Below, piece by piece: positions 3 to 29,151 of a stretch of DNA of 40,138 nt. The notes beneath the pieces are model-generated. The model was not told the DNA's origin, ran no database searches, and saw nothing but the letters and a program-made list of their open reading frames with translations. Source of the DNA: a virus. Its lineage: Duplodnaviria > Caudoviricetes. The first letter of the stretch is position 1, and every line of letters begins with the position of its first letter. Location of the stretch: positions 1-40,138 of IMG/VR virus record IMGVR_UViG_3300017780_001365. One strand, given 5' to 3'. Both the position numbers and the translations under genes were made by a program.

Positions 3-3000
3 AGGAAAAAACCACTTGCAAACAGGGTAGCAATTACCGCACAAAAGAGAATGGCAAAGATTGCCGCTCAAGACTTGGCCATTGCTGAGGCTCAAACAGC
101 AGTGGAGGCGGCTAATGCCGTTCTAAAGAAAGAAGGCGCAACGGTAAATGTTGCGAATCGTCTAGCCGCTGATATCTCAACACGTGCAGGAGCCAACCCA
201 GAATTGGTTGCTAGGGCAAATCAAGCATCGCAAGTTGCAAGCCGTATTACTGAAAGCGCAAATCAAATTAGATCAACACTTCCAACAATAACCGCTGAAC
301 TTGATGGTTTGATTGCGAAGCGCAATAGCTTGGCAACCAGAATTCCAGAAGCCTACTCACAGAAGGTTCTTCAGACGATGGAACTTGGAAGGCAGGTGCG
401 CGCCATGCCAGCAAAGGCAGTTGGCGCAACCTTGGAACGTGTTGGTGACACTATTTCGAAGACTGATACGGCAGTCACAAACTTCCTTCAAGAACGTGGT
501 CTTGATCAAATGTACACCGCAGCCGTTGGTGCGGCTGGGGTCGTAGGTTTGGCAGGTAGTCCAGTTATCGGGGCTATCGGTGCAGGGGCAGCTGCACTCA
601 AGACTGGCAAGGTTCTATCCAATTATGGAAAGCTTTTCCGTTATGTTGGCAAGGAGATGGAGAATGTGCGTGGTCAGATTCCATTCTGGAAGCGTGTGGC
701 GGCACACACTACACCGGGTTCTTTCGGTCGTGGTGTAGCTCACACGTTTAACATGCTGGACCTTGGTGGTGTCACATCTGACACAATCCGCAGGGCGGGT
801 CGTGGTGTGGCCGCAGCCGCACCAACCGACTTGATGTTTGAGTACCTTTCTGATGGTGCTGACATGCGTCCAGAAACCCTGTATCAAGCGGGTGCTGAGT
901 CATTCTTTATTGGTGGATCATTTGCTGCCGCTGGTGGTGCGTTCATGGGAACCAAGAAGCGCATGCGTGAGCTTTCGATTGGTGATGAGCTTAACTTTAG
1001 ACGAGACCTTACGGACCCTCGTCAAAAAGCGTTGTTTGAGGCTATACCAGCAGGAACACGTAGGGCTATTGCTACATACTCAATTGCCAACCCAACACTA
1101 AACTACATCTTCAAGGACTCTGGTGCTAGTAGGTATGACCCTAATACCAATACTGCAATCATCAACGTAAAGTCAACCAACCCAATCAAGGCACTGGTTG
1201 CACACGAAACGCTTCACCATACAATCATCAAGAACAACATGGAAAATGGCATTTCTGCCCTGTTCCTTGGTGATACAAAAAATAATACGGTTGGTGGATT
1301 GTTCCGTTCTAGGGATGGAAAGCTAGACCCGAATTTCGAGGCATTCCGCGATGGATACTACAAGCGTCTTGGTGTCGAGGGTATGTCCAACGCAGAGAGG
1401 GATGCCATCTACCCACTCGACAAGATCGCGGTTGAATACTTCATCGAAAAGCATGCGGACCAGTATGCTGCTATGGCAGAATCTGGTGAGCTTGGAGCGG
1501 TCGCAGCCAGCGGTGCTGCTAGGCGCAAGCTTGGGTCGATACTTGAGACCGTCCTGCCTCGCATCCCAGTCCTCAAAGACCTCCACTTCAAGAGCGGTGG
1601 CATGATCGACGCGAATGGCGTATGGGTGACTGGAAACGGCATCCTAGACGCTGAGGGTGTCAAGCGTGACCCAATCACCAGCAAGATGTTCCGCGACATG
1701 AACAGGCGCAGTGCAGGGCTTGTACCGGGTCAGTTTGATCCGCTTATGAGCGATAAACCAGACTCTGGTGCGCCAATTATCCTTAACCCCGCTGACGGCA
1801 TCGATGCCGAGCTTCTTCACCCACTTGTCAAGGTTGACGACACTGGCAAGCCCATCATGCGGGACGGTAAACCTGTGGCACTAGACAGGGCTACAGAGCT
1901 TGAGCGTGCGCTTGCAGGGCTTACTGCCAAGGAAGTCCTACAGAGGAAGCGTGATGAGAACTACGCCCCAGAAAAGGGTGAGGCGCACATCGATGACGAG
2001 GGGCAATTCCAACCCGGATGGTTGTCCAACGATGTTCTCACCGAAATGTTCGCCAAGAACAAGTACAACCCAGAGCAGAAGCGCATCATACGCGAGATGA
2101 ACAAGCTAATCCGCAAGGGTGCTGGAGATCGCGTGGTGATGATTAACTTCCCAGCCACCACCCGCAACAAGGCTGGTAAGGTGGTTTATAAGCCGCAGGC
2201 TGCAACTCTCCGCGACACGGTTCCAGTCGCAGTTACAATCTCCAAGGACGGAAACCTGTTGTTTGGCTTGATGTCTGTCACCAAGCTTCATGAGAACATC
2301 CAGAAACGCTCACAGAGCAAGCGTGGTAAGAAACTTTATGGTGGCAACGTGGATTTGATCCTGCGCGACACGCAGGCAATGATGGACTACCACAAGCAAG
2401 GCGTGGATAGTCTTGAGTACTTCAGTCAGAAGTATGGTGCTGTCGAGGCAGACGAGCGCAAGAAGTTCATCAACACAATGTTTGGTCTGCTCAACCAAAA
2501 GGAACAGGCAGTTCTCAACCCAATGCTGTTGGAAGATGGGGTAAAAAGCCGTGATAACGTCTATCGCACCTACCGCGCAGATCGCGTCAGCAAGGCAATC
2601 CCGATGGCCCCAGAAGAGTACGCTGCAATGCCATTCAGCTACGAGGCAGTGAGTGCGGTGAGGATGCCAGAGCAACGCAAGATGCCAGAGGTATCCCCCG
2701 AAGACCTCAACCCCGTAGCTAACAAGCAGGAAGCACAGGGTCTGTGGGCAGACGGCAAGCAGATGTTTGCGATCAACGAAATGGATGAGAAGCTGACACC
2801 AATCACCTCCAAGGCGATGCTGGACTCTTATCCAGCAGATGCTATTGGTTGGATGGAGCCAGATACGGAACCGACTGGTCAGATGCGGTTCATGCCAGAG
2901 AAGCTAGATGCCGACTACATGAAAGCTGTGGAGTCTGGTGATGTGGAGACGCAGCAGAGGATGGTGGATGAGGCGGCGAAGAGGGCTGGGTATAGACAAG

Positions 3001-4916
3001 GAGTTTTATGGCATGGATCAAGAGGTAAAAAATTTACGGTTTTTGATGAAACTAAAGGAGATAGACTGCCTTGGATGGAAGGTCATGTAGGTCATTATTT
3101 CTCACCAGATAAAAACATTGCTAGTGCAATGGGTAGTAATGTTTTAGGTGCTTATCTTAAAATGGATAATCCATTGATTCTTGATGCTGGTGATTATTCT
3201 TATTCCGCAATTACACCAGCACGCAAAAAAGAGATTCAAAAACAAGGGTATGATTCAGTAATTGGAACTCCGCAAACTAATGCGGGGAAACAAGAATTTA
3301 TTGTATTTGATTCCAACCAAATCAAATCCGCAGACCCCATCACCTACGACAACTCTGGCAATGTCATCCCGTTGAGCAAGCGGTTTGATGTGGGGAGTAG
3401 GGATATTCGGTATATGCCGGAGGTTAATATCACCACACCAAATGATCGTGTTCAAAAAGGTTATGATTACACATACTTGGATAGTCTTTCTAGAGATCCA
3501 AATACAAACGCTATTCAACTGACGAGACCAATTGGAAAAAAAGAAGCCTTGCCGCTAATATCAGAAAAACAAAAAATAATCAACGAGGCCGATATTGACT
3601 CATTTCAGTTTACAGATTCAGCTAATGTTAGTCTTTATTTGAACAACGGCAAAAAGGTTAGATTTCGATTTGATCCAGCATTGCTAGAAAAGCCAGAAGT
3701 TAAAGATTTTGCAACAGAACACGCTGGAAAACGCATTCAAATAGCAATGGCTGATAGGCACACCGCAACAGGTGGTGATATGGGTGGAGTTTTGTACCCT
3801 TGGCTAAAGTCAAATCAAGTTACAATTCTTGGTGATGACGGAATAGAATACAAAGCTGTATGGGCAAACAATGCTTGGAAGCCAGTATTGAGCATGCGAA
3901 AGAAAGCATTTGATCAAGGAATATTTGATTTGGCGGTTTATATAATGGGGCCGGATGCTCATGGTTCTAATTTGCGTACAGTAAGAACTGTATCTAACGA
4001 AATTGAACACGCTAATATATCTTCAGCATACAAAGATGTTTTGCTTTATGCAGCCAATTATGGTGTAACACGATTTAATATATCGCATTACACTACGGAA
4101 ATAGCAAAGAAAAACAAAATATTGTCTGAGTTGAATTCTCAAATTGACAAATCAAATAATCAAAATGAGATCACAAAACTAGGCAAACAAAAGTCAAAAC
4201 TTGAAAAAGAAATAAAAACAGCAGAGAAGAAGCTGGAATCTTACAAGATTTCAGAAGAGGAAACACAGCTTGCCGCAATTCTTAAAAACTACAAAGCTGC
4301 TACTACCAGACTTAAAAATAATACTGGCACAGAAAAAGGGGTCAAAACGCACAAACAAGCTTTAGATAAATTTATTAAATCTGCCAAGTTCAAGAAAATT
4401 CAAAAAGGAATTCATGGAAAGCAAATGATCAATCTTGGTAGTTCATTTGATGAAAGAAAAGCAGCAGTCAATGCCACATATGGAATTGATGCAGAAGGAT
4501 TTGATACGCAGTCAGTAATGAACGAGCTTGCTGATTTTGATGGAGCTGATATTAACCAAATTGTTGCCAGCGTTGAATTGTCAAGAAATCCAGATTTATT
4601 TGCCGTTTATCTTGGTGACGATCCAAAACAAGCCAAGTTTATGACCCCACAGGAAACCAAGGCGGCACAGCAACTCAAAGCTGATCCAAATTTTGTCCCT
4701 CATGAATCTTATGAGTGGGTCATGCTTGGGCCTAAAAATGGTAACAACTTTTTGAATTCTAACCCAAAAAGAGCTGTGGAATATTTCCCAAATTTTGCTA
4801 GACAATACAGCGAAAAAACAGGAAAGTTAACAGGTGTTCCGCAGGAGACATCCATCATGGGTGCGATGCGTGATAGCGGAGCTGTGATCCTTGAACTTCC
4901 ATCTAAAGCACAATGA
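3..4916 (+). CDS. C-terminal part of a large polyvalent / internal virion (ejection) protein with an HExxH metallopeptidase-like region and an ART-PolyVal-like ADP-ribosyltransferase domain
   Basis: Frame is open from base 3 (RKKPLANRVAITAQKRM...), so it is 5'-truncated. Ala/Gly-rich N-part; AHETLHH at 1200-1220; WHGS...GHYFS...YLKMDNPL...GYDSVI...QEFIVFDSNQIKSA at ~3009-3330; repeated R/K-(F/Y)-MPE linkers. Confidence 0.75.
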   Translation, partial: RKKPLANRVAITAQKRMAKIAAQDLAIAEAQTAVEAANAVLKKEGATVNVANRLAADISTRAGANPELVARANQASQVASRITESANQIRSTLPTITAELDGLIAKRNSLATRIPEAYSQKVLQTMELGRQVRAMPAKAVGATLERVGDTISKTDTAVTNFLQERGLDQMYTAAVGAAGVVGLAGSPVIGAIGAGAAALKTGKVLSNYGKLFRYVGKEMENVRGQIPFWKRVAAHTTPGSFGRGVAHTFNMLDLGGVTSDTIRRAGRGVAAAAPTDLMFEYLSDGADMRPETLYQAGAESFFIGGSFAAAGGAFMGTKKRMRELSIGDELNFRRDLTDPRQKALFEAIPAGTRRAIATYSIANPTLNYIFKDSGASRYDPNTNTAIINVKSTNPIKALVAHETLHHTIIKNNMENGISALFLGDTKNNTVGGLFRSRDGKLDPNFEAFRDGYYKRLGVEGMSNAERDAIYPLDKIAVEYFIEKHADQYAAMAESGELGAVAASGAARRKLGSILETVLPRIPVLKDLHFKSGGMIDANGVWVTGNGILDAEGVKRDPITSKMFRDMNRRSAGLVPGQFDPLMSDKPDSGAPIILNPADGIDAELLHPLVKVDDTGKPIMRDGKPVALDRATELERALAGLTAKEVLQRKRDENYAPEKGEAHIDDEGQFQPGWLSNDVLTEMFAKNKYNPEQKRIIREMNKLIRKGAGDRVVMINFPATTRNKAGKVVYKPQAATLRDTVPVAVTISKDGNLLFGLMSVTKLHENIQKRSQSKRGKKLYGGNVDLILRDTQAMMDYHKQGVDSLEYFSQKYGAVEADERKKFINTMFGLLNQKEQAVLNPMLLEDGVKSRDNVYRTYRADRVSKAIPMAPEEYAAMPFSYEAVSAVRMPEQRKMPEVSPEDLNPVANKQEAQGLWADGKQMFAINEMDEKLTPITSKAMLDSYPADAIGWMEPDTEPTGQMRFMPEKLDADYMKAVESGDVETQQRMVDEAAKRAGYRQGVLWHGSRGKKFTVFDETKGDRLPWMEGHVGHYFSPDKNIASAMGSNVLGAYLKMDNPLILDAGDYSYSAITPARKKEIQKQGYDSVIGTPQTNAGKQEFIVFDSNQIKSADPITYDNSGNVIPLSKRFDVGSRDIRYMPEVNITTPNDRVQKGYDYTYLDSLSRDPNTNAIQLTRPIGKKEALPLISEKQKIINEADIDSFQFTDSANVSLYLNNGKKVRFRFDPALLEKPEVKDFATEHAGKRIQIAMADRHTATGGDMGGVLYPWLKSNQVTILGDDGIEYKAVWANNAWKPVLSMRKKAFDQGIFDLAVYIMGPDAHGSNLRTVRTVSNEIEHANISSAYKDVLLYAANYGVTRFNISHYTTEIAKKNKILSELNSQIDKSNNQNEITKLGKQKSKLEKEIKTAEKKLESYKISEEETQLAAILKNYKAATTRLKNNTGTEKGVKTHKQALDKFIKSAKFKKIQKGIHGKQMINLGSSFDERKAAVNATYGIDAEGFDTQSVMNELADFDGADINQIVASVELSRNPDLFAVYLGDDPKQAKFMTPQETKAAQQLKADPNFVPHESYEWVMLGPKNGNNFLNSNPKRAVEYFPNFARQYSEKTGKLTGVPQETSIMGAMRDSGAVILELPSKAQ

Positions 4917-10131: not shown

Positions 10132-10392
10132 ATGGAATACAAACCTAAAACATCGTGGCTTAAACAGCAGATTGCACGGAAGACTAGAGGAGTGCGCGAT
10201 TACAACATTGCCGAAGCTCAAATGCAGGAAAAGCAAATGAAGTACCTTCAACGCAGCCCTAGATTTGCATCTCTTAGTAGCGCAACCCAAAAGGTTCAAG
10301 AGGACATCCGCGCTGACATCAAGGGCTACATCCACGCCAAAAACAAGGCACGTGGCACGCAAAGTTCCGCTGAACGCAAGGTTGTCAAATGA
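10132..10392 (+). CDS. Small basic hypothetical protein (MEYKPKTSWLKQQ...)
   Basis: ATG at 10132 after an A-rich leader; the ORF-track start at 9856 overlaps the portal. Confidence 0.65.
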   Translation: MEYKPKTSWLKQQIARKTRGVRDYNIAEAQMQEKQMKYLQRSPRFASLSSATQKVQEDIRADIKGYIHAKNKARGTQSSAERKVVK

Positions 10393-10538
10393 AGAAGAAG
10401 ACAATGATCAAACGCGCAGATGGTTCCATGTCTCCCCGTGGGATGTGGGACAACATCCGCGCCGCTAAAGGTTCTGGCAAGAAGCCAACCAAGGAAATGC
10501 TAAAGCAGGAGCGTAAGATAAAGCGGAAGGCGAAGTAA
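10389..10538 (+). CDS. Small basic protein, 49 aa (MKKKTMIKRADGSMSPRGMWDNIRAAKGSGKKPTKEMLKQERKIKRKAK)
   Basis: Not in the ORF track (below its cut-off); ATGA overlap upstream and TAATG overlap downstream. Confidence 0.7.
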   Translation: MKKKTMIKRADGSMSPRGMWDNIRAAKGSGKKPTKEMLKQERKIKRKAK

Positions 10539-10792
10539 TGGAAAAGCGTTTCACCAAGGTCGTCAAAAACCCGAAGACTGGTCGCACACGCACCGTCAAG
10601 TACGGACAAGCAGGTAAGGCTGCGGATGGCAAGGATCGCATTCGACCCGGAACGAAGAAGGGCTCAAGTTATTGTGCTAGAAGTTATGGCATTAAAAAAC
10701 GCTTGCCAGAGTCGCAACAAAACGATCCAAATACACCCAACAACTTGAGCAGGAAAAAATGGAAATGTGTGGGGAAAACCAGCAGGAAGTGA
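10538..10792 (+). CDS. Small basic phage protein (SYCARS...DPN...RKKWKC type, DUF6321-like)
   Basis: Motif YCARSxG...NDPNTPNNLSRKKWKC resembles small basic proteins of aquatic phages; translational coupling. Confidence 0.65.
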   Translation: MEKRFTKVVKNPKTGRTRTVKYGQAGKAADGKDRIRPGTKKGSSYCARSYGIKKRLPESQQNDPNTPNNLSRKKWKCVGKTSRK

Positions 10793-11430
10793 AAAATTCT
10801 GGAATCTACAGAATAACCTGTGTTGCTAATAACCATTTTTATTATGGAAGTAGCATCAATCTTAAAAATAGGTTTCGAGACCATATTAGCAAACTTAGAA
10901 GTCAATCACATAGAAATCAAAGACTCCAAAGAATATTTAATAAATATGGTGAAGCTTCTTTGACTTTTGAAGTTGTTCAATATTGTGACCCATCATTTGT
11001 ACTCATATCCGAACAAGAATATCTTGACGAACATCACAAGAATTCAAATTGTATAAATTTCTGTAGAGATGCCAAGTCACCAATGGCTGGATTAAAATTC
11101 TCTGAGGATCACAAAAGAAAAATAGCAGAAGCTCAAGCTAGAAACAAATACACTTTTTATTATAAATGTGGAAAAATAGAATCATTTAATAGCCTTAGTT
11201 TAGCTGGAAAAAGATTCAAAGTTAAACCTGCTATTGTTTCAAAATGGTTCAAAAGAAGAGATCTTGGGCGAAATCACGGAATACTTCAAACATCCGACAT
11301 AATAAAAGCTGAAAAATCTGGAGATGAAGAAATTGTTTTACTTCCATACCAATATAAGACAGAACCATGGATTCTCGCTGGAGCCACAAGCAAAACCGAA
11401 TACTACAGAGAATTAAGAAAAAATAAATAA
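10789..11430 (+). CDS. GIY-YIG homing endonuclease with NUMOD3-like motif
   Basis: SGIYRITCVANNHFYYGSSINLKNRF...EQEYLD...N; SEDHKRKIAEA; strongly AT-rich; probable GTG start overlapping the upstream TGA. Confidence 0.88.
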   Translation: MKNSGIYRITCVANNHFYYGSSINLKNRFRDHISKLRSQSHRNQRLQRIFNKYGEASLTFEVVQYCDPSFVLISEQEYLDEHHKNSNCINFCRDAKSPMAGLKFSEDHKRKIAEAQARNKYTFYYKCGKIESFNSLSLAGKRFKVKPAIVSKWFKRRDLGRNHGILQTSDIIKAEKSGDEEIVLLPYQYKTEPWILAGATSKTEYYRELRKNK

Positions 11431-11434
11431 TCTT

Positions 11435-11620
11435 ATGAAGAAACCAACAACTAAAGCAGGCAAGCAAGCTAAAGTGTCGAAGGTCATGCGGGAATACAAA
11501 GCAGGCACTCTCCACGCTGGTCGTGATCCCAAAGGCCCGAAGAAAGCCCCAGTGGTTAAAAGCCGCAAACAGGCGATTGCAATTGCGCTTTCACAAAGCG
11601 GTCAATCCAAACGCAAATAA
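11435..11620 (+). CDS. Small basic protein (DUF6496-like)
   Basis: KVSKVMREYKAGTLH...VKSRKQAIAIALS signature. Confidence 0.75.
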   Translation: MKKPTTKAGKQAKVSKVMREYKAGTLHAGRDPKGPKKAPVVKSRKQAIAIALSQSGQSKRK

Positions 11621-11624
11621 CTCT

Positions 11625-11762
11625 ATGAAAAAAGGTAAATCATGTGGCTGTGGCCACGAAGGTAAAGAATACGGCAACGGCAAGAAGAACGGCAAGAAAG
11701 GCTATGTTGAGATCGAAATCAAGATGGAGCGTATGCCGAAGAAAAAGGCCAAGAAGAAGTAA
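11625..11762 (+). CDS. Small Lys-rich protein, 45 aa
   Basis: ATG at 11625 (MKKGKSCGCGHEGK...KKKAKKK); fits the gene packing. Confidence 0.6.
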   Translation: MKKGKSCGCGHEGKEYGNGKKNGKKGYVEIEIKMERMPKKKAKKK

Positions 11763-11776
11763 CTAACCAGCAACCA

Positions 11777-11986
11777 ATGACACCACTACCACAACCAACC
11801 GTACAAGAAGCCGTAGCAGCACTATCCGACCGTGACGAGTTCAAGGTCATCGTCCAGTTTGTCCGTGACGAGCGTGAGCGTTTCTTTGGCGACCTGCGCC
11901 AGTGCATCGACGCTAACGAGGTGATGAAGGTCACAGGCAGCATTGCAACGCTAGATGAGCTTCTGGGGATGTTGTCAATGAAGTGA
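11777..11986 (+). CDS. Small helical hypothetical protein of the head module
   Basis: CAACCAATG start context; last gene before the scaffold. Confidence 0.7.
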   Translation: MTPLPQPTVQEAVAALSDRDEFKVIVQFVRDERERFFGDLRQCIDANEVMKVTGSIATLDELLGMLSMK

Positions 11987-11988
11987 TC

Positions 11989-12017
11989 TTGACAAATCGC
12001 TAGTCACATGCTTTACT
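11989..12017 (+). promoter_or_regulatory. Sigma70-type promoter
   Basis: TTGACA-N17-TTTACT with an extended -10 TG at 12009-12010. Confidence 0.65.
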
Positions 12018-12023
12018 AACCAC

Positions 12024-12096
12024 GCCCGTTTTGGGCTTCATTGGTTGTTTTGGGGTCGCAGGTTTTTATTCGTTTTACCTGCGGCCCCTCTACTTT
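12024..12096 (+). ncRNA. Putative ~70-nt sRNA (5' mini-hairpin, single-stranded UUCAUUGGUUGUUUU, terminator-like hairpin)
   Basis: GCCC/GGGC hairpin 12024-12036; 12-bp stem 12052-12063/12077-12088; directly after the promoter; no ORF follows. Confidence 0.5.
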
Positions 12097-12509
12097 ATAT
12101 GGAGTTTAGCGAGTTTACAAAAATTCCATAATATGCCTAATTATACTCAAATCGAGGTATATTGGGGTAAAAGATGAATAATTGGACAGATTCTGTCCTT
12201 ATTTGCTTACGACATAACTCCCGGCATTTGGAGGAAGGCTCGTAGGCATAGTTCGCCTTAAGCGGCGAGACCATGCTTCATACTCCCGTATATTCTTCGG
12301 AAAGGACGACTTACACACCAGCAATGCTGGAACCAATGATAGCAGAGGGTTGAGGCTATAGGACTGCATCAAGCTCATTGGTCGTCACACTCTATTTAGC
12401 TACGCCGCGACTTACTTCAAGCGTAGTACCCTGTGAGACTTTTACCTAGGTTTCGTTCGGTCGTTTGAGCGTTCCTCGATTCCTTGAATATGTCACCAGT
12501 ACAATGGGT

Positions 12510-12613
12510 AAAAACAAAGGGCTGGTCGAGGAGTTGGAGACCCGACCAGCCCTAGATCCAGAACATCTCTGCGCTGGAGGGGTGAATGGTGACGATGTTT
12601 CCAACTCCGTCAA
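12510..12613 (-). ncRNA. Putative ~100-nt kissing-loop RNA / attenuator ending in an intrinsic terminator
   Basis: Three hairpins; 11-bp stem 12518-12528/12543-12553 followed on the minus strand by UUUGUUUUU; loops of the first and last hairpins are complementary. Confidence 0.5.
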
Positions 12614-12617
12614 CGCA

Positions 12618-12646
12618 AATAATGCACACATTTCACGTCTGGTCAA
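12618..12646 (-). promoter_or_regulatory. Sigma70-type promoter (minus strand)
   Basis: Minus-strand TTGACC-N17-ATTATT preceded by TGn. Confidence 0.5.
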
Positions 12647-12698
12647 TACCAAGAGTCATCTATCAATCCACACTCATCCACAACTACCTCTCCACTCG

Positions 12699-12727
12699 TT
12701 GACATATATAGATTCCCCCAACATTCA
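12699..12727 (+). promoter_or_regulatory. Candidate promoter for the scaffold-capsid operon
   Basis: Perfect TTGACA at 12699-12704; weak -10. Confidence 0.4.
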
Positions 12728-12762
12728 TAGGTCATCGCCGCCGCCGGGCGTTAACTGGTGTA

Positions 12763-13806
12763 ATGATTATGAATCAGCAATCCGAGGCTATCGAGGGAGC
12801 CGAAAATACCTCGTCTAACATATCCTTTGATGATTATATCAATCGAAGGGTCAACACTGCCGAACCAGAAGCCGAGGCTACTGAGTCTGCGGAAGATACT
12901 TGGGAAGAGGAAGATGCTCTGGAACCAGAGGAAGTTTCCGAAGAACAAGAGGAAATCGTAGAGGACGAGTCCGAGGACGAAGGCGAGGAAGAACAGGAAA
13001 TCGACTTGTTGTCGTTAAACCCTGCCCAAATTCAAGAACTAGCCAAGAAGAGCCGCAGCCGTCTGCTCCACCGTGTGGGTGAGTTGACCGCTCAGAAGAA
13101 AGCTCTGGAGGAAAAGCTGAATTCGCAGGCTGAAGCGAAACCACTGCCAACCATCCCTCAAGAAAGCAACCCATTCCGCGACATTGATACCGTGGAGGGT
13201 CTGAAAGCTAAATACGAGGAACTGGAGAAGGTCGCGGAGGAGACCGACACGATCCTTGAAGAACACGAAGACTACGGTGCAGAAGACATCATCGTCGTGG
13301 GAGACAAGGAGTTTACCAAGAAAGAGATCCGTCGAGCAAACCGCAATGCGCGTGAGGCAATGGCTAAATACCTGCCCGCACAAAGCGCGGAACTGGCAAA
13401 GCGTGAACAGCGCAAGGTGATGGAGCAGCAATATACCGCTCTCATCCCCCAAGAAGTGCCAGAGCTTGCAGACGAGGAATCCGAGTTAAGTAAACAATAC
13501 AAGGCGTTGCTGTCAGACCCATTGGTTGAACAGGTTAACAAGCTAGTGCCAGATTTGGGACCGCAACTTCCCTACATTCTAGCACACGCTATTCGGTCAA
13601 TTCATCGCAGTCAGAAGTCCAAAGCAGTCGTGAAGGCAGCGGGATCAGCTTCCAAGGCTAAAGTGCCGGGAACCCCGTTTGGTGCTGGAGCGGCAAAGTC
13701 TGGAGTGAAGACCGCGAAGAAGAGTGCCGATCAAGCCTATCAAAGGTTTCAATCCTCGACATCCGTTGAGGACTGGGTTGCCGCCAGAGTTGCTCGCCTA
13801 CAATAA
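12763..13806 (+). CDS. Capsid scaffolding protein
   Basis: Very acidic N-terminus, coiled coil, basic C-terminus; directly before the capsid gene. Start may be 12769. Confidence 0.78.
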   Translation: MIMNQQSEAIEGAENTSSNISFDDYINRRVNTAEPEAEATESAEDTWEEEDALEPEEVSEEQEEIVEDESEDEGEEEQEIDLLSLNPAQIQELAKKSRSRLLHRVGELTAQKKALEEKLNSQAEAKPLPTIPQESNPFRDIDTVEGLKAKYEELEKVAEETDTILEEHEDYGAEDIIVVGDKEFTKKEIRRANRNAREAMAKYLPAQSAELAKREQRKVMEQQYTALIPQEVPELADEESELSKQYKALLSDPLVEQVNKLVPDLGPQLPYILAHAIRSIHRSQKSKAVVKAAGSASKAKVPGTPFGAGAAKSGVKTAKKSADQAYQRFQSSTSVEDWVAARVARLQ

Positions 13807-15631: not shown

Positions 15632-16270
15632 ATGACTACAAAGACCTACACGGAGTTGTTGGACCAAATCAAATCGCTTTGCGGTGTTGAGTTTGCCACA
15701 ATTGAACTTCCACGAATCAATGCCTTGGTTAACCGCCGAGCAAAACGCGCATACCGCGCATCAAACAATTGGCCGAGGTTTATTACGGTTGGTCAAGCTC
15801 GTGCCGTCTCAAGCAAGAATGTTCCCTACACTGAAGGCATTCTTGATACCATTGGAACTTTCTTGAAGATTCAAGCGGTTGCCCCATACACAACTCCTAG
15901 CCCACAAGATTACAATTTCTATGTTGATTCTGGTGGTGCTAAACTAATTACCAGTGCGAACCCAGCATCGGTATTTGTGACTTACAAAAAGGTTTTGAGC
16001 GACACTTATGGTGAAACTACTGGGATGCAACCCGCTGTTCCCTCAGAATGGTTTGATTACATTGCTCACGGAGTTTACGCTGATTACCTTCGTGCTGAAG
16101 GTCAACAAGAAAAATCTCAACTTGCTGATTCTGAAGCGTCCATGATTCTTAACGACGAACTTGTGCAAATTGAACAACAAGGTGCAGGTATGACCTTTGG
16201 AACAAGGTATCTAATGAACACTAACGGCAATGCTGTTGCTAATGTTGTTCCTCGCACCTCACAAGGATAA
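15632..16270 (+). CDS. Putative head-tail adaptor / tail tubular A-like protein, paralog 1
   Basis: Position after the capsid genes; ~210 aa; clear similarity to the next gene. Confidence 0.55.
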   Translation: MTTKTYTELLDQIKSLCGVEFATIELPRINALVNRRAKRAYRASNNWPRFITVGQARAVSSKNVPYTEGILDTIGTFLKIQAVAPYTTPSPQDYNFYVDSGGAKLITSANPASVFVTYKKVLSDTYGETTGMQPAVPSEWFDYIAHGVYADYLRAEGQQEKSQLADSEASMILNDELVQIEQQGAGMTFGTRYLMNTNGNAVANVVPRTSQG

Positions 16271-16998
16271 TGCAAACTCGCCTTTATTCTGATTTGTTTG
16301 GGTTGATCCAAGCTATGCTTGGGATTAACTTCTCCGTAGTGGAGGCAATTAGGGTAAAGGCACTTATTAATCGCCGCGCACAGAGGGCATATCGGGCTAG
16401 CAACTACTGGACGAGGTTCCTTAAGGTAGCCGAGCAACGTGATGTTGTGGATGGACTTGTTCCGTATGAGCAGTTCCAGATGCCTACGATTGACACATTC
16501 CTGCGTATTTACTTGCAACATCCGTACAGGGCAGGTGGTGGACAGGAGTTTGAGTTTACCGTAACATCTCTTGGAGCAACGCTAATTGCTGATAGTTCAT
16601 CGTCTGGTATTGCGTTTGTGACATACAAGGCGGCGATGCCAACCTACTATGGTGACAATGATGGCGAGGACTCCGCAGTACCATACGAGTGGTTCCAGTA
16701 TATTGCACATGGTGTCTACGCAGACTACTTGCGTGCAGAAGGGCAACAGGACAGAGCTGCAATTGCGGAAGTCGAAGCTAACGAGATATTAACAGATGAG
16801 TTAATGCGTCTTGACGAACAGCACACGCAGACTGTAATATCACCACGTATTTTTACCACCTCCAACATGACCAATCGTTATGGATATGGTGCTATTGTTG
16901 GGGGAACTATTGCGGGATCAACAAACCCACCAATCCTAGACGAAGAAGGCGACACAATCGTAACAGAAAACTCACAAACTCTCACAACAGAAGGATAA
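16270..16998 (+). CDS. Putative head-tail adaptor / tail tubular A-like protein, paralog 2
   Basis: Shares NRRAxRAYRASNxWxRF and EWFxYIAHGVYADYLRAEGQQ with the previous gene; has an extra C-terminal tail. Confidence 0.55.
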   Translation: MQTRLYSDLFGLIQAMLGINFSVVEAIRVKALINRRAQRAYRASNYWTRFLKVAEQRDVVDGLVPYEQFQMPTIDTFLRIYLQHPYRAGGGQEFEFTVTSLGATLIADSSSSGIAFVTYKAAMPTYYGDNDGEDSAVPYEWFQYIAHGVYADYLRAEGQQDRAAIAEVEANEILTDELMRLDEQHTQTVISPRIFTTSNMTNRYGYGAIVGGTIAGSTNPPILDEEGDTIVTENSQTLTTEG

Positions 16999-20413: not shown

Positions 20414-20977
20414 ATGACCAGAAACCAGATTATTGAGCTTCAGAGGCGCATAGGGGCGACTCCAGACGGGTTCTGGGGGCCGAAGTCCATAAAGTCTTGC
20501 AAAGCCCACCTACGCGCTCTCATGCCCAAGGAGAACCCTTGGCCTACCACCGACCAAGCAAGCCTCACTGCGTTCTACGGGCGACCCGGCGACGATAAGC
20601 AACTGGTCAACCTCGCGGTGGGTGACCTCGACATTCGCTATGACGGCAAGAATGTGAAGTCCATTCGCTGCCACCACAAGGTAGCACCCAGCCTACGCCG
20701 CATCCTAGAGCAGATTGCCAAGACCCCGCATTCATGGGTGTTGAAGGAGTACGCTGGATGCTTTAACAATCGCCCCATGAGAGGTGGTTCTTTGCCCTCC
20801 CTGCACGCCCGTGGAGCCGCGATAGACCTTGCCCCCAGCACCAACGCCAACCGCGAGCATTGGCCTAGCAGCGCAAACATGCCGCTGGAGGTGATGGAGG
20901 TGTTCGCCAAAGAAGGATGGTTATCTGCCGGGGCTTTCTGGTCGCGGGATTCCATGCACCACCAAGCCACGCGATGA
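20414..20977 (+). CDS. Endolysin: M15-family Zn peptidase with N-terminal peptidoglycan-binding motif
   Basis: LQRRIGATPDGFWGPKS; SLHARGAAID (SxHxxGxAxD); DSMH. Confidence 0.88.
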   Translation: MTRNQIIELQRRIGATPDGFWGPKSIKSCKAHLRALMPKENPWPTTDQASLTAFYGRPGDDKQLVNLAVGDLDIRYDGKNVKSIRCHHKVAPSLRRILEQIAKTPHSWVLKEYAGCFNNRPMRGGSLPSLHARGAAIDLAPSTNANREHWPSSANMPLEVMEVFAKEGWLSAGAFWSRDSMHHQATR

Positions 20978-21270
20978 CAATACCCAAGCATATCCAAGTT
21001 GGCGGCCTGCGGGTGAAGATCAACATTGTTGAAAATCTTGAGGAATATGGCAATTTTTCGCTTGACGACCTTACCATTACCCTGCGCAATGGCGACACCA
21101 AGGTGATGCTTGACACTCTCAGACACGAAATGATGCATGCCGCTTTCGCCATTGGCGGGATAGGACACTGCAAACCATTCGAGGAGGTCGAAGAGGGTGT
21201 TGTGCGTTGTCTTGACCATATCTTCTTCCCAGCGTGGTCGAAGATCCAACAACAACCAAAGAAACAATGA
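20974..21270 (+). CDS. Small HExxH metallopeptidase-like phage protein
   Basis: TLRHEMMHA followed by EEGVV. Confidence 0.7.
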   Translation: MTIPKHIQVGGLRVKINIVENLEEYGNFSLDDLTITLRNGDTKVMLDTLRHEMMHAAFAIGGIGHCKPFEEVEEGVVRCLDHIFFPAWSKIQQQPKKQ

Positions 21271-21848
21271 CATACAAGAAGTTACCACCATTGGACTTCA
21301 TCAAGGAATGCTTTGAATTGTCCAATGAATCACCGTCTGGAATCAAATGGAAAAATGAAAGGCCACAATCGCATTTCAAAACATTGCGTGGTTGGCGTAT
21401 CTGGACAGCCCAGTTTTCTGGAAAGAATGCTGGGAATATCCACTCGCCGGGCAATGGATACAAGCACTGGGAGATTCGTTTGGCGGGTTCGCTTTACAAA
21501 GCGCACCGCATTGTTTACATGCTAGCAAATGGCATTGATCCTAGCGATTTTGAGGTAGACCATATTGACGGAAACGCGACAAACAATGATCCTAAAAATC
21601 TTCGTTTGGCGAACCATGTTGAAAATGGTCATAATAGGAGCAAAAACAGAAACAACAAATCTGGCCATAAGGGTGTTTCTTGGTATAAAAATTTAAGGAA
21701 ATGGGTGGCTGAAATCATGGTTGATGGCAAGCGCAAGCGGCTTGGATGCTTTGATGAGCTTGCAGATGCCGCTAATGCGTACAGGGAGAAATCTTTGTTG
21801 CTTCATAAAACATTCTCACCCTTCGCAACCGCAAACATTAACGCATAA
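21267..21848 (+). CDS. HNH homing endonuclease with C-terminal AP2 domain
   Basis: AHRIVY...VDHIDGNATNNDPKNLR...N; SGHKGVSW...WVAEI...LGCFD...AANAY. Confidence 0.9.
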   Translation: MTYKKLPPLDFIKECFELSNESPSGIKWKNERPQSHFKTLRGWRIWTAQFSGKNAGNIHSPGNGYKHWEIRLAGSLYKAHRIVYMLANGIDPSDFEVDHIDGNATNNDPKNLRLANHVENGHNRSKNRNNKSGHKGVSWYKNLRKWVAEIMVDGKRKRLGCFDELADAANAYREKSLLLHKTFSPFATANINA

Positions 21849-21853
21849 CCAAT

Positions 21854-22588
21854 ATGGCCTCGTACAAGAAATTTATCGTTGTTGCTGATAATCATGGTGT
21901 GCATGGATGCCAAAAGGCAATCAAGAAAGCTCTTGATTTCAATAAAACTTGGGGGGCGCATTACCGCATCCACCTTGGTGATTTCATCGACCTTTCACCA
22001 TTAAGGCGTGGTGCGTCCGCCGAGGAAAAGGCAGATGGAATCTCCGACGATGTGATGATGGGCATGGAGTTCATTCGCCAGTATCAGCCCCATTACCTAA
22101 CAATTGGAAATCATGAGGACAGGCTAGCACTACATTCCACCTCATGCTCTGACGGAATGTTGCGTGAACGATGCACTGAACTATGGTCTGAGATCGAGGA
22201 CGAGTTCCGAAAGATGAAGATCAAGACCTGCCCGTATCATGTGAGCAAGTTTCTCCGCATGCCAGAGGGTGGGCCAAAACTCATCCACGGGTTCCGCGCA
22301 ACCATGTACCCTGCCAAGTCTCACTACGAGAACTGGGGTGCTTGCATCCACGGCCATGTTCACAAGCCCGATGTCTATGTGGCTAGGCATATTGACGGTG
22401 AGGCTAGCTTCAGCGTTGGTTGCCTTGCAGACATCGACCAGTTGACCTATGCCGACCGCACTCCCGCGAAACTAGCGTGGAGGAATGGGTTCCTCTATGG
22501 GCTAATCAACACCAAGACGGGTGCGTGGCAAGCATGGAATGTTGTCAAGGAAGGCGACGACTGGATTTCGCCAATGGGTATTCTCTGA
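21854..22588 (+). CDS. Calcineurin-like metallophosphoesterase
   Basis: DNH, GDFID, GNHE, HG and GHVH motifs. Confidence 0.88.
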   Translation: MASYKKFIVVADNHGVHGCQKAIKKALDFNKTWGAHYRIHLGDFIDLSPLRRGASAEEKADGISDDVMMGMEFIRQYQPHYLTIGNHEDRLALHSTSCSDGMLRERCTELWSEIEDEFRKMKIKTCPYHVSKFLRMPEGGPKLIHGFRATMYPAKSHYENWGACIHGHVHKPDVYVARHIDGEASFSVGCLADIDQLTYADRTPAKLAWRNGFLYGLINTKTGAWQAWNVVKEGDDWISPMGIL

Positions 22589-22634
22589 TCATCCAACTTT
22601 CCATCCAACTTTACAACCAACCACCATCCAACCA

Positions 22635-22910
22635 ATGAGAATAAAAAAAGCAAATGACGCAATGTGTGTGCGCGATGTCACAACCGAAATCGAAAACCTA
22701 ATAATGGAGAATGACTTCGAGTCAGCATTGGATATGTTGACGCAGTTGAGAGATGAATTAAGGTTTTGGGGATGGGATAGGAAATGCAAAGACTACACCC
22801 CGACTGGTAAAAAACAAACCAAACAAAAAAATGAGAACGAAAGCACAAGTAGCACTAACCGCACTAGAACAAGCACTCAAGATCACCGGGGTGCAGGAAC
22901 CAAAGCGTGA
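22635..22910 (+). CDS. Hypothetical protein
   Basis: CAACCAATG start after an A/C-rich leader; 3' end overlaps the next gene. Confidence 0.55.
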   Translation: MRIKKANDAMCVRDVTTEIENLIMENDFESALDMLTQLRDELRFWGWDRKCKDYTPTGKKQTKQKNENESTSSTNRTRTSTQDHRGAGTKA

Positions 22911-23052
22911 CGACGAGTTCACCGCAGGCGAGTATGCCGACAAAGCAGAAATGCACACGGAAAGCGCAAGGCGTTTGCTGAACCGCTATGTGAAGGACGG
23001 TAAACTCGCATTACGCAAAACACCCAAGGGTCAATTCTACTCAATCCTGTGA
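22831..23052 (+). CDS. Small winged-HTH protein
   Basis: FTAGEYADKAEMHTESARRLLNRYVKDGKL. Confidence 0.65.
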   Translation: MRTKAQVALTALEQALKITGVQEPKRDDEFTAGEYADKAEMHTESARRLLNRYVKDGKLALRKTPKGQFYSIL

Positions 23053-23270
23053 CCGACGAGGACTGGGGGTTCGACGAGGCACGCCGCCTCATGCGTAAAT
23101 GCTCCTGCAAAAAACCCACCAACGAGCTGCGTTACGAACCCGGCGTGACCTACATCATTTGCAACTGCGATACGAAAAGTCCACGCTCATTCATGGAGGA
23201 TTGGCATCCAAAGCAAGTCGTAAGACATTGGAACGCAACTGGTTACATTTCTCTGCAAAAAAAGCGTTGA
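23049..23270 (+). CDS. Small Cys-containing hypothetical protein
   Basis: GTGA overlap; CSC...CNC...HWN pattern reminiscent of Lar-type Zn-ribbon proteins. Confidence 0.55.
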   Translation: MTDEDWGFDEARRLMRKCSCKKPTNELRYEPGVTYIICNCDTKSPRSFMEDWHPKQVVRHWNATGYISLQKKR

Positions 23271-23335
23271 CCTAGTTACCATGCTGCTGTCAACTATCCA
23301 CAACTGATCACATTGATCACAACCAATAGAACAAA

Positions 23336-23917: not shown

Positions 23918-24093
23918 CCGCTCAAGAACTCTGCCAATGGTTCGCAGAACGCGAACGGCAAGTTAGGTTGGCAAAGCATGACCAACCAAAACCGAAACCA
24001 GTCGATGCCGATCGCCGTAGGGTGATTGGCTACAACGGGTACGGACAAGTCAAACGCAATGGACAAGTATTTAGAACCCACTCTGGACGCTAA
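23914..24093 (+). CDS. Hypothetical protein (59 aa)
   Basis: Not in the ORF track; ATGA overlap with erf; stops 1 nt before the exonuclease ATG. Confidence 0.6.
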   Translation: MTAQELCQWFAERERQVRLAKHDQPKPKPVDADRRRVIGYNGYGQVKRNGQVFRTHSGR

Positions 24094-24094
24094 C

Positions 24095-24898
24095 ATGAAA
24101 ATCATCGAAGGAATGGGGCGTGAATACTACGCACAAACCGCAAGCCCAACCAACCTCCAAGGTCCAGTCAGCAAGTCATTGCTCTGGGACTTCAACCGCA
24201 GTCCGTACAAGTGGTTCAATAACCGCAGGGAGAAGGAATCAACACCCGCCATGCGGACCGGAGTCCTATACCACACTGCCTGCCTTGAGCCTCACAAGCT
24301 TGAGACGGAATACATCGTTTCACCTTACTCCGACTTCCGCACCAAGGAAGCGCGTGAGTGGCGTGACAGCATGACTGGCATACAGGTCATCACTGCTGAC
24401 GAGTACATTAAGGCCGAGAGCGCAGGGTATGCGTTTCGGAAAAATCCAGCAATCGAGCATCTGCCCGGTTATCGTACCGAGCTTGCTGTTTTCGCGGATG
24501 TATTTGGCACACCTTGCAAGTGCCTTATCGACCTCGTTCCGGACTCTGGAGTGTCGCTGATCGACCTCAAGACAACTCAGTCTATTGAGAGCGTCGAGCA
24601 ACTCACATCGCTGATCATCAACCGTGGCTACCACTGGCAGGCAGCACTCTACCTCGACCTGTGGAACATGGCATCTGGCGACAACCGCACAGAGTTCATG
24701 TTCGTGTTCATGGAAGTTGACAGACCCTATGAGATGGCGAACATCCTCCTCGACGAGGACTTCATCAAGCTTGGCCGCGAAGGTTACATGAATGCGCTAG
24801 CCAAGTGGAACCAGTGCGTCCAGACTAATACATTCCCACCTGCCATTGACGGCATCCAAACAATCTCACCTCCAAAGTGGGCAACCAAAACAAAATAA
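24095..24898 (+). CDS. PD-(D/E)xK exonuclease (RecE/ExoVIII, DUF3799-like)
   Basis: SKS...SP...AMRTGVLYHTACLEP...KCLID...IDLKTT...YHWQAALY; adjacent to erf. Confidence 0.88.
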   Translation: MKIIEGMGREYYAQTASPTNLQGPVSKSLLWDFNRSPYKWFNNRREKESTPAMRTGVLYHTACLEPHKLETEYIVSPYSDFRTKEAREWRDSMTGIQVITADEYIKAESAGYAFRKNPAIEHLPGYRTELAVFADVFGTPCKCLIDLVPDSGVSLIDLKTTQSIESVEQLTSLIINRGYHWQAALYLDLWNMASGDNRTEFMFVFMEVDRPYEMANILLDEDFIKLGREGYMNALAKWNQCVQTNTFPPAIDGIQTISPPKWATKTK

Positions 24899-24902
24899 CC
24901 AT

Positions 24903-25127
24903 ATGAGCTACGACAACACAAATACTGGCATCCTGTTCAAGAACGACACAGGTGATAACCCGAAGCGTCCTGCATACAAGGGCAAGATCGATGTCAACGG
25001 AGTTGAATATCAACTCGCAGGTTGGCTGCGTGAAGGCAAGAGCGGGAAGTTCATCTCGCTGAAGATCGACGAGGGTAAGGGTGGCAAGCCTGCGCCGAAA
25101 GAAGAGACCGACGAAATTCCCTTCTGA
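24903..25127 (+). CDS. Small putative ssDNA-binding protein
   Basis: GILFKN...PAYKG...AGW...FISL with an acidic DEIPF SSB-type tail. Confidence 0.7.
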   Translation: MSYDNTNTGILFKNDTGDNPKRPAYKGKIDVNGVEYQLAGWLREGKSGKFISLKIDEGKGGKPAPKEETDEIPF

Positions 25128-25134
25128 TCCATCT

Positions 25135-25192
25135 CCGCAGTGATGAGCGGTCTCATTGTCATTCTCTGGCCCGGAGGTTCATCGCAGGGCAA
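25135..25192 (+). ncRNA. Structured RNA motif, copy 1 (pseudoknot)
   Basis: P1 CCGC/GCGG; loop GTGATGA pairs with TCATCGC; P2 GCCC/GGGC; covaries with copy 2. Confidence 0.6.
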
Positions 25193-25201
25193 CCACTTTC
25201 C

Positions 25202-25456: not shown

Positions 25457-25460
25457 GTTT

Positions 25461-25515: not shown

Positions 25516-25523
25516 ATTTTCCA

Positions 25524-27107: not shown

Positions 27108-27108
27108 T

Positions 27109-27339
27109 ATGCCACGCTTCGTTCGCAACCCAACACTAGCCGAGGACGGACTCCCGCAGGAAATGTTCCTCGATGTTCGTCGAGCATGTGAAAGGTGGTT
27201 GCTGGCAAACGATCCGTTTTACTGCGACGAGGACAACTATAAAACATGGAAAACCAAAACCAATGAACAAACAAGCACTACTGAAAGTACACACAGAAAC
27301 TTGCCGACAAGCGTTGGCGATAATGGATGTAAAAAATAA
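27109..27339 (+). CDS. Hypothetical protein
   Basis: ORF in a packed operon; overlaps the next gene. Confidence 0.5.
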   Translation: MPRFVRNPTLAEDGLPQEMFLDVRRACERWLLANDPFYCDEDNYKTWKTKTNEQTSTTESTHRNLPTSVGDNGCKK

Positions 27340-27649: not shown

Positions 27650-27795
27650 GAAAATTCCTAGATTTTAAGCGGGTTGCAGCGGATTCTGAAACTTTTTTCA
27701 GAAATTCTGCATTTTTCTGTTGAGTTTATTCCACTCATGTGGGAGAGTCTTCTCGTTGCCAGCAGGCAGCACCAACAACCAACCAGAACAAACCA

Positions 27796-27945
27796 ATGAA
27801 AAACAAAATTGAAACAATTATCGAAACCCTCTTAACTTACAATCAACGCATGGCAGCTGAGGCAATCTTGGACTTGCTGGTTGAGGGGGCAATTAGTGAG
27901 CGTGAAGCAAAACGCCAACTCGCAGTTAACGGAATCAACATCTAA
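27796..27945 (+). CDS. Small early-type hypothetical protein
   Basis: AAACCAATG start after an A/C-rich leader. Confidence 0.6.
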   Translation: MKNKIETIIETLLTYNQRMAAEAILDLLVEGAISEREAKRQLAVNGINI

Positions 27946-28912: not shown

Positions 28913-29151
28913 CAAAAATACATTGGCGCATCTGCGCCTGCTGCGGACTCCCAAAAGCACTGGAGGAGTTCCGCAGTACCACCAACTGCAAAAAGTGCCA
29001 GAACAACAATGAAACGAGGAAGAAAACCACTACCGCAGGGCAAGCATCGCATAGCCCGATCCATAACAATGTCACCAGAATCGTGGGAGATCCTAGCCCA
29101 CCTCCAGAAGCATCACTTCCGAGGAGAGAAGTCACGCAGCCGGGCAATTGA
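28909..29151 (+). CDS. Possible small Zn-finger protein
   Basis: CACC...CKKC; ATGA overlap; the 3' half overlaps the next ORF. Confidence 0.45.
   Translation: MTKIHWRICACCGLPKALEEFRSTTNCKKCQNNNETRKKTTTAGQASHSPIHNNVTRIVGDPSPPPEASLPRREVTQPGN

What the first reader, a model, noticed from the sequence alone, without database searches (positions are those of the whole stretch)
11989..12096. Stand-alone sRNA antisense to the phage's own start-codon context
Seen: a promoter (TTGACA-N17-TTTACT) drives a ~70-nt unit with a 5' mini-hairpin, unpaired UUCAUUGGUUGUUUU (12037-12051) and a strong 3' hairpin. The unpaired part is the reverse complement of AAAACAACCAAUGAA. Matching 10-nt sites span the ATG of genes at 27796 and 27263 (AACCAATGAA) and 11777 and 22635 (CAACCAATGA); 8-nt sites occur at 15352 and 25524. 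These genes lack Shine-Dalgarno sequences. Inference: a trans-acting anti-AUG sRNA that silences a set of own, competing-phage or host mRNAs, as a timing switch or an RNA-based immunity in a phage with no visible repressor.
Basis: partly seen in the sequence, partly recalled or inferred. Interest (0 to 1): 0.75.

Follow-up and report, generated by a model that had tools for sequence, protein, structure and literature searches.

The report
Phage sRNA with tandem anti-AUG seeds
A family of freshwater phages keeps a conserved promoter-to-terminator unit, predicted to make a ~75-base RNA whose exposed strand mirrors the start codons of the phage's own small and early genes but almost never those of its capsid and tail genes, so it likely turns early protein synthesis down; no transcript has been observed.

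Summary
The unit (promoter, small hairpin, U/G-rich single strand, long hairpin, U tail) follows the 69-aa gene in 88 distinct copies across this podovirus-like family. The 3' stem shows compensatory changes at 11 of 12 pairs, and GNRA/UUCG tetraloops place the RNA on the + strand. The single strand carries UCAU 92 times against 14 in shuffles, often in tandem. Seeds match AUG-spanning contexts at 53/500 early starts, 30/624 late starts and 34/2450 internal ATGs. Capsid, scaffold and three other late genes have none. The minus-strand ORF is not conserved. Against: seed-target covariation holds only between clades (independent-pairs test p=1), three of twelve genomes show no top site at a start, host and timing are unknown, and the absence of SD is genome-wide. 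Best reading: a trans-acting sRNA that likely damps translation of own early genes, working like Bacteroides FopS/GibS or GcvB but phage-encoded and self-directed. No Rfam match. In passing: a separate ~400-nt structured RNA with a covarying kissing loop lies opposite it (12217-12612, minus).

The parts
11989..11994 (+). -35 hexamer TTGACA
   Evidence: TTGAC[AT] lies within 40 nt of the 69-aa gene's end in 79 of 90 distinct loci. Of the other 11, 2 have TTGACG and 9 have an extra ORF first.
12009..12017 (+). TG motif and -10-like hexamer TTTACT (family consensus NTWANT, spacer 17-18)
   Evidence: Matrix of 58 units, partly shaped by the search pattern. The same consensus stands at the scaffold and leftward promoters. 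Promoter activity is inferred.
12022..12096 (+). predicted small RNA, about 73-75 nt (66-112 nt in relatives)
   Evidence: 88 distinct copies; lengths; fold -32.6 kcal/mol, z -5.7. The ends are inferred.
12024..12036 (+). 5' mini-hairpin
   Evidence: Among 88 units, 12 have GNRA and 7 have UUCG tetraloops read on +, and 0 have their reverse complements.
12037..12051 (+). unpaired U/G-rich seed containing UCAU, antisense to the A/C-rich AUG context
   Evidence: UCAU 92 against 14 +/- 3.8 and UCA 140 against 33 in 300 shuffles; 84 of 88 units have at least one UCA and 42 have two or more.
12052..12088 (+). 12-bp 3' hairpin with a U-rich loop (likely intrinsic terminator; the loop is a possible second seed)
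   Evidence: 11 of 12 pairs have two-sided changes in 41 sequences, with many G-U one-sided changes on +. TTCGTT occurs in 42 of 88 units, and AAACGAA lies at 25/554 early starts against 3/2299 internal ATGs.
11777..11986 (+). 69-aa gene that anchors the unit; its start (11769-11780) is the second-best predicted target
   Evidence: A match of 7 nt or more in 10 of 40 orthologs.
27784..27800 (+). best predicted target: start of the 49-aa early ORF at 27796 (-17.6 kcal/mol with accessibility)
22629..22639 (+). predicted target: start of the 91-aa ORF at 22635 (start added by hand)
27250..27267 (+). predicted target: start of the 128-aa DUF1599-like gene at 27263
   Evidence: weak Pfam hit just under the cut-off. 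A match of 7 nt or more in 4 of 5 orthologs.
24891..24907 (+). predicted target: start of the SSB gene at 24903
28999..29013 (+). predicted target: start of the 61-aa ORF at 29009 (start added by hand; ribbon-helix-helix-like by eye only, no Pfam hit)
23319..23331 (+). predicted target: A/C-rich stretch upstream of the Erf gene start at 23336
21247..21263 (+). predicted target: A/C-rich stretch upstream of the HNH gene start at 21267

Best explanation
The unit is a conserved phage promoter-hairpin-terminator cassette, predicted to make a stable ~75-nt trans-acting small RNA whose exposed U/G-rich, UCAU-containing strand would pair with the A/C-rich, SD-less start regions of many of the phage's own early and small genes and likely block their translation initiation, while capsid, scaffold and tail genes carry no such site. 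Shown from sequence: conservation, structure, strand, tandem anti-AUG seeds, and enrichment of complementary sites at own starts with early above late. Inferred: (1) transcription from a host-type promoter; (2) pairing in vivo; (3) repression by masking the AUG and the A/C-rich enhancer; (4) timing. The RNA would accumulate during infection, and late transcripts ending at the same terminator would carry the same seeds at their 3' end, so early translation would fall as the late phase starts.
For: Conservation: 88 distinct copies; 2 distinct loci failed the filter, and both show the unit on inspection. Structure and strand: 11 of 12 stem pairs are compensatory, and 19 of 88 5' loops are GNRA/UUCG on + with none in reverse. 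Seeds: UCAU 92 against 14. Perfect matches of 7 nt or more over the AUG: 53/500 early, 30/624 late, 34/2450 internal ATG; early above internal in 19 of 24 genomes; shuffled seeds give 0-0.6 per genome. Duplex energy is better for early than late starts in 21 of 24 genomes. Accessibility-weighted scan of the window: 8 of the top 10 sites lie at starts, which cover 6.6% of the genome; 12 shuffles give 0-3 (with 9 of the 59 starts added by hand). With automatic starts only, 39 of 120 top sites in 12 genomes lie at starts, against 32 of 240 for shuffles. No match of 7 nt or more at MCP 0/37, scaffold 0/36 and three other late genes 0/28, 0/31, 0/24. Clade-level fit: CCA-ATG at 17/172 starts in genomes with CAUUGG-type seeds, against 5/320 and 2/495. 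Precedent in an SD-less host: FopS/GibS bind near start codons and repress (PMC11697453, passages).
Against: No transcript, 5' end or strand data exist; only assembled contigs were available. Covariation is not shown independently of descent: 3 independent pairs, sign test p=1, and some CAUUGG lineages have 0/49 or 0/14 CCA-ATG starts. Only about 1 in 10 early starts matches perfectly, and no single ortholog family is matched throughout. Three of 12 genomes (G001, G002, G007) had 0 of 10 top sites at starts. By plain duplex energy, early starts beat internal ATGs in only 14 of 24 genomes. Some late genes are matched often: the 69-aa gene 10/40, terS 10/37, the 92-aa gene 10/34 and the holin-like gene 9/24. 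25 of 88 units have no UCAU. The promoter is of the same type as the others, so timing cannot be read from sequence. Gene starts and the early/late labels come from my own gene caller and gene order. Pooled counts are not independent.
Confidence: 0.58

Rival explanations
1. It is the same base-pairing sRNA, but its main job is outward. It would silence the early mRNAs of a superinfecting relative (RNA-based exclusion) or host mRNAs.
For: Seeds also match early starts of other clades: class A seeds hit 17% and 14% of class B and C early starts, against 26% of their own. Tandem seeds read like a catalogue of common starts. Self-specific covariation is unproven.
Against: A seed that hits relatives hits the phage's own early genes at least as well. 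The window's seed shows no enrichment at starts of one Verrucomicrobiota-phylum genome, 1/94 against 9/400; that genome may not be the host. No integrase was found.
Confidence: 0.18
2. The RNA is a protein decoy. Repeated UCAU and U-rich loops would bind a host RNA-binding protein or a tRNA-directed nuclease (UCAU is also the U33-plus-anticodon stretch of tRNA-Met, recalled).
For: UCAU repeats of variable number and spacing. U-rich loops recur in several positions. No single target is conserved.
Against: The flanks of UCAU extend the complementarity to own starts well beyond internal ATGs, which share the AUG. The UCAU lies in single strand, not in an anticodon stem-loop. 25 of 88 units keep UCA plus the downstream complement but not UCAU, or have neither.
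Confidence: 0.1
3. It is only a (bidirectional) terminator for the late operon and the convergent leftward unit. The seed would be the relic start of a minus-strand gene or mini-ORF, which looks like other early starts because early genes lie on that strand in most relatives.
For: Early genes are on the opposite strand in most relatives. The hairpin folds on both strands with z about -5.7. Leftward ORFs often end near it.
Against: 23 of 58 units have no minus-strand ATG, the ORFs run 2-79 codons with no shared peptide, and indels of +5 and +2 separate the closest relatives. The promoter is kept at a fixed distance even when the unit follows another ORF. Tetraloops and G-U pairs read on +. Tandem CAU repeats are not expected of one decayed start.
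Confidence: 0.08
4. It is an attenuator or leader that gates read-through into the scaffold and capsid genes.
For: It lies upstream of the scaffold and MCP genes in every copy, with a promoter followed by a terminator.
Against: The scaffold gene has its own promoter (TTGACA at 12699). Leftward genes or a leftward RNA lie in between. No alternative antiterminator fold appeared in the consensus.
Confidence: 0.06

Closest known systems
FopS and GibS sRNAs of Bacteroides thetaiotaomicron (PMC11697453, passages read)
   Same: [quoted passage not shown] That Bacteroides largely lacks SD-led initiation is recalled.
   Different: Those are chromosomal, multicopy, target host glycan genes and associate with RbpB. 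This one is phage-encoded, single-copy, has a 5' hairpin and tandem CAU seeds, is predicted to target own genes, and has no Rfam match.
GcvB (PMC3879156, abstract read)
   Same: A multi-target sRNA that masks A/C-rich (ACA) translation enhancers. ACACA is at 104/554 early, 26/872 late and 49/2299 internal windows here. The G/U-rich seed of GcvB is recalled.
   Different: GcvB is larger, enterobacterial and binds upstream of an SD. Here the seed covers the AUG itself in SD-less genes. No Rfam match.
c4 antisense RNA of P1/P7 (PMC12197685, passages read); P4 CI RNA (recalled)
   Same: A phage-encoded RNA acting in trans on the phage's own translation start through exposed complementary stretches.
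   Different: c4 targets one antirepressor mRNA in a temperate immunity circuit. Here many starts are matched, no antirepressor or integrase was found, and there is no Rfam C4 match.
PreS/LPR1 of lambda and VpdS of VP882 (10.1101/2024.10.31.621285 and PMC12197685, passages)
   Same: Trans-acting phage sRNAs with a seed and many targets.
   Different: Those are Hfq-dependent sRNAs of temperate phages and act largely on host mRNAs. No self-directed anti-AUG tandem seed was described in the passages read.

Membership tests
Trans-acting base-pairing sRNA (kind) | Own promoter and terminator bounding a short non-coding unit | tested here: met
   Sequence level only.
Trans-acting base-pairing sRNA (kind) | Accessible seed complementary to translation starts encoded elsewhere, above chance | tested here: met
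Trans-acting base-pairing sRNA (kind) | Seed and target change together independently of descent | tested here: inconclusive
   Clade-level fit, but 3 independent pairs give p=1.
Trans-acting base-pairing sRNA (kind) | Discrete transcript and measured regulation | not testable with these tools
   Only Logan contigs were available.
c4 / C4 antisense RNA | Match to the Rfam covariance model | tested here: not met
   No match at E<=1 in the window or at E<=10 in 11950-12800, apart from a sub-threshold plasmid antisense hit at 12517-12593.
c4 / C4 antisense RNA | Targets an antirepressor mRNA in a temperate immunity region | tested here: not met
   No antirepressor, CI or integrase among the proteins scanned; many small ORFs remain unnamed.
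FopS/GibS | R1 seed homology and Rfam match, Bacteroidaceae chromosome | tested here: not met
   No Rfam match; the unit is in a phage.
FopS/GibS | Bound by an RNA chaperone (RbpB) | not testable with these tools
   The host is unknown.
GcvB | Match to the Rfam model; about 200 nt (size recalled) | tested here: not met
   length 66-112 nt.
Type I toxin-antitoxin antitoxin | Overlaps or pairs extensively with one small toxin mRNA | tested here: not met
   The longest perfect complement in the window is 10 nt, and the convergent minus-strand region has no conserved ATG.

The most novel reading that the evidence does not exclude
These phages regulate translation with a generic anti-initiation RNA. 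It would be an array of anti-AUG seeds that reads the start-codon context of a whole gene class in an SD-less host and replaces a protein repressor, timing the early-to-late switch and excluding superinfecting relatives with the same molecule. In one clade it sits face to face with an undescribed ~400-nt kissing-loop RNA.
Probability: 0.3. Interest if true: 0.85.

Novelty: new variant of a known kind. Interest (0 to 1): 0.68.

Why it matters
Few phage trans-acting sRNAs have been described, and those in the papers read belong to temperate phages and act mainly on host mRNAs or on one antirepressor. An RNA that shuts off a phage's own early regulon through the AUG context would be a protein-free timing device. 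It would also show which bases matter for initiation where there is no Shine-Dalgarno sequence. It is directly testable in vitro, and 88 natural variants give ready compensatory pairs. The neighbouring ~400-nt RNA is a second, independent candidate for a new structured RNA class.

Tried and rejected
Rfam, whole window and local: no family. ARAGORN: no tRNA or tmRNA. Consensus promoter/terminator scan missed the unit.

Host search: the first genome scan found nothing. The second gave 6 distant capsid relatives in MAGs of mixed phyla, likely mis-binned. Both Atlas look-ups gave only viruses, and cluster members carried no organism. An exonuclease search in 401 genomes of one phylum gave only 24-34% identity hits. 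The endolysin had a 51% match in a prophage-like module, but no other phylum was searched as control, so Verrucomicrobiota is only a lead.

RNA model: in 151 genomes of that phylum it gave 1 hit, which reads as a plain terminator-like stretch. It found the unit in 27 of 30 genomes, missed 6 of 10 more divergent genomes that carry it, and so is not sensitive. Distant relatives (C75C1 and 6 MAG contigs, 44-58% capsid identity) show neither the 69-aa gene nor the unit.

RNA evidence: 4 of 14 runs were laid; contigs cover the region in 2 of them, which cannot show transcription.

Statistics that were weak or null: plain duplex energy of starts against internal ATGs, 14 of 24; independent-pairs test. 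The G-U count is biased by the search and was not used. A column-pair scan of the large RNA was too noisy to use. A by-eye likeness of the large RNA to RNase P or group I motifs (recalled) was dropped, since Rfam gives no hit.

Literature: 9 full-text searches listed no paper on this RNA. The alignments of the 10,006-candidate viral RNA catalogue could not be read, so prior listing there is not excluded.

Full report
Setting. The window is a 40,138-base virus record. It is podovirus-like, with terminase, major head, tail and lysis genes and an Erf/exonuclease/RuvC/O-like/DnaB block at about 21-31 kb. No integrase or CI repressor was found among 64 proteins scanned against PHROGs or 35 against Pfam. 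The closest annotated phage, C75C1, has 56% capsid identity and no host on record. The host is unknown; Verrucomicrobiota is a weak lead.

Observation. The target word is over-represented, 9 against 1.19 expected. Lack of SD is general: 9.3% of 1376 called starts in 30 genomes have an SD-like word, and positions -20 to +14 are A/C-rich (my own gene caller).

Conservation. I fetched 160 loci by the 69-aa gene and the capsid gene, 37 more by a neighbouring motif, and 39 records whole or nearly whole. TTGAC[AT] stands within 40 nt of the 69-aa gene's end in 79 of 90 distinct loci. A search that asked only for TTGACN, a hairpin and a T-rich tail found 88 distinct units among 222 loci with the gene. 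Of these, 75 start within 45 nt and 13 lie further on, mostly after an extra ORF; 2 loci were too short, and 2 failed the filter although the unit is visible in them. One copy, L071, looks degenerate, with no seed. The -10 consensus is NTWANT at 17-18 nt, mostly with TG before it (partly by construction). The same form occurs at the scaffold and leftward promoters, so the non-canonical -10 is a trait of the family. A model found one copy per genome in 27 of 30 genomes and none in 7 distant loci.

Structure and strand. In 41 aligned copies, 11 of 12 pairs of the 3' stem have two-sided changes, and many one-sided changes give G-U on the + strand. Of 88 5' hairpins, 12 close a GNRA and 7 a UUCG loop on +, and none shows the reverse complement. 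Folding energy alone does not tell the strand. Most relatives have a longer U tail than the window's copy.

Not a coding relic. 23 of 58 units have no minus-strand ATG in the seed region. The others open 2-79 codons with no common peptide, and the closest relatives differ by +5 and +2 nt.

The seed. The unpaired 5' part is about 81% U+G. UCAU occurs 92 times against 14 +/- 3.8, and UCA 140 against 33, in 300 shuffles; 42 of 88 units carry two or three UCA, 4 have none and 25 have no UCAU. Read backwards, the strand is a string of start contexts. A second recurring motif, UUCGUU (42 of 88), has its complement at 25/554 early and 16/872 late starts against 3/2299 internal ATGs.

Targets. Perfect complements of 7 nt or more across the AUG occur at 53/500 early starts, 30/624 late starts and 34/2450 internal ATGs in 24 genomes; 6 genomes with fewer than 10 early genes were left out. 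With accessibility, 8 of the top 10 sites in the window lie at starts: 27796, 11777, 22635, 24903, 29009, 21267, 27263 and 23336; shuffles give 0-3 (9 of the 59 starts were added by hand). With automatic starts only, the count is 6 of 10 in the window and 39 of 120 over 12 genomes, against 32 of 240 for shuffles. The seed beat both shuffles in 8 of 12 genomes and scored 0 in three. By ortholog family, capsid 0/37, scaffold 0/36 and three other late genes 0/28, 0/31 and 0/24 never match. Small early genes and four late genes (69-aa 10/40, 92-aa 10/34, terS 10/37, holin-like 9/24) match in part, and no family matches everywhere. In one 94-aa early family, three genomes match their own seed through three different sequences (3 of 7).

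Covariation. CAUUGG-type seeds go with CCA-ATG starts at 17/172, against 5/320 and 2/495, and the self-against-cross permutation gives p=0.014, but kin are not independent. On a capsid tree of 37 rows there are only 3 independent pairs, with p=1, and lineages G010 (0/49) and G451 (0/14) break the pattern. Covariation is suggestive, not shown.

Host targets. About 0.49 Mb of one Verrucomicrobiota-phylum genome is also SD-less but C-rich at starts. The window's seed is not enriched there (1/94 against 9/400); other seeds gave 0-9 of 94 against 0-34 of 400. This argues mildly against host shut-off, but the genome may not be the host.

Mechanism. Most likely (0.58) a stable sRNA, protected by hairpins at both ends, pairs with the unstructured A/C-rich initiation regions and masks the AUG. 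Late transcripts ending at the same terminator would add more seed late in infection. Transcription, pairing, repression and timing are all inferred. Rivals: action on superinfecting relatives or the host (0.18), protein decoy (0.10), terminator plus gene relic (0.08), attenuator (0.06).

Comparison. It works like FopS/GibS (PMC11697453, passages) and GcvB (PMC3879156, abstract), and like c4 in being self-directed (PMC12197685, passages). It is a member of none. PreS and VpdS act largely on host mRNAs (10.1101/2024.10.31.621285, passages). PAK_P3/P4 antisense RNAs are cis-encoded (PMC5563952, passages), and ONT-cappable-seq ncRNA candidates have no assigned mechanism (PMC10914365, passages). 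Nine searches (listings only) showed no paper on this RNA. For PMC10690425 I saw the abstract and supplement legends and searched the readable supplement text with 0 hits; its main table and alignments were not readable, so an unnamed entry there is possible. Earlier AI notes of this scan describe similar anti-start RNAs in other phage genomes and nothing similar in sequence. They are unchecked and are not counted as support.

Neighbour. On the minus strand, behind a promoter at 12646-12618, lies a ~400-nt non-coding element (about 12612-12217). In 32 aligned copies 93.8% of cells pair, and 28 of 94 pairs have two-sided changes against 18.6 in shuffles, with slid controls at 35-43% paired (the structure was derived from the same alignment). 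The loops of its first and third hairpins are complementary over 7-12 nt in all 32 copies, with 18 different words, against a mean of 4.4 nt for mismatched pairs. No ATG is conserved. It was found only beside this family's genes: 37 of 37 viral hits, and 23 of 29 true metagenome hits, the other 6 having short flanks. It does not overlap the sRNA and is missing from most clades that have it, so I treat it as separate.

Verdict. A real, conserved and well-structured candidate sRNA with a plausible self-directed anti-AUG mechanism. New variant of a known kind; interest 0.68.

Noticed in passing
window 12217-12612, minus strand; promoter 12646-12618: A candidate ~400-nt multi-helix non-coding RNA with a covarying 7-12-nt kissing loop (about 12608-12600 with 12538-12530) and a long-range closing helix. 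No Rfam match and no conserved ORF; found only in part of this phage family, between the sRNA and the scaffold gene. It may be the more novel element.
   Followed up: partly
L306 minus-relative unit at + 7441 (G004); L323 - 15701 (G021); L117, L141: A second promoter-hairpin unit with a UUUUCAUA seed, on the strand opposite to the late genes, in some relatives; a possible second anti-AUG sRNA.
   Followed up: no
L009 about 4374 (G020): The kissing-loop 5' module of the large RNA also appears in a relative that gave no hit to the rest of that RNA and has what looks like an HNH gene end beside the sRNA (by eye), which suggests a modular leader.
   Followed up: no
window 20974-31040: Early and replication genes are co-oriented with the late genes here and in G016, G017, G446, G449 and G450, but lie on the opposite strand in most relatives: a clade-level inversion or module swap.
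   Followed up: partly
window 12699-12762: The scaffold gene has its own promoter and a short GC-rich leader motif that recurs in relatives; a possible cis element.
   Followed up: no
L016, L021, L027, L126, L373, L394 (5' hairpin of the sRNA): A similar ~24-nt insertion in the 5' hairpin is shared by copies with different terminators, so the RNA's modules look mosaic.
   Followed up: no
window 51-4916: A 1621-aa protein with an ART-PolyVal ADP-ribosyltransferase domain at residues 985-1095; its length varies from about 980 to 2550 aa among relatives.
   Followed up: no
window 10132-11762: A run of very small Lys-rich ORFs (DUF6496, weak DUF6321) and a GIY-YIG-type homing endonuclease gene lie between the 691-aa gene and the 69-aa gene; the set varies among relatives.
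   Followed up: no
window 15632-16998: Two tandem paralogous genes (212 and 242 aa) stand where most relatives have one of about 204 aa.
   Followed up: no
L404 (G397:C25 about 125-128.5 kb): A prophage-like lysis module in a Verrucomicrobiota-phylum genome with an endolysin 51% identical to window 20414-20977; the best host lead found.
   Followed up: partly
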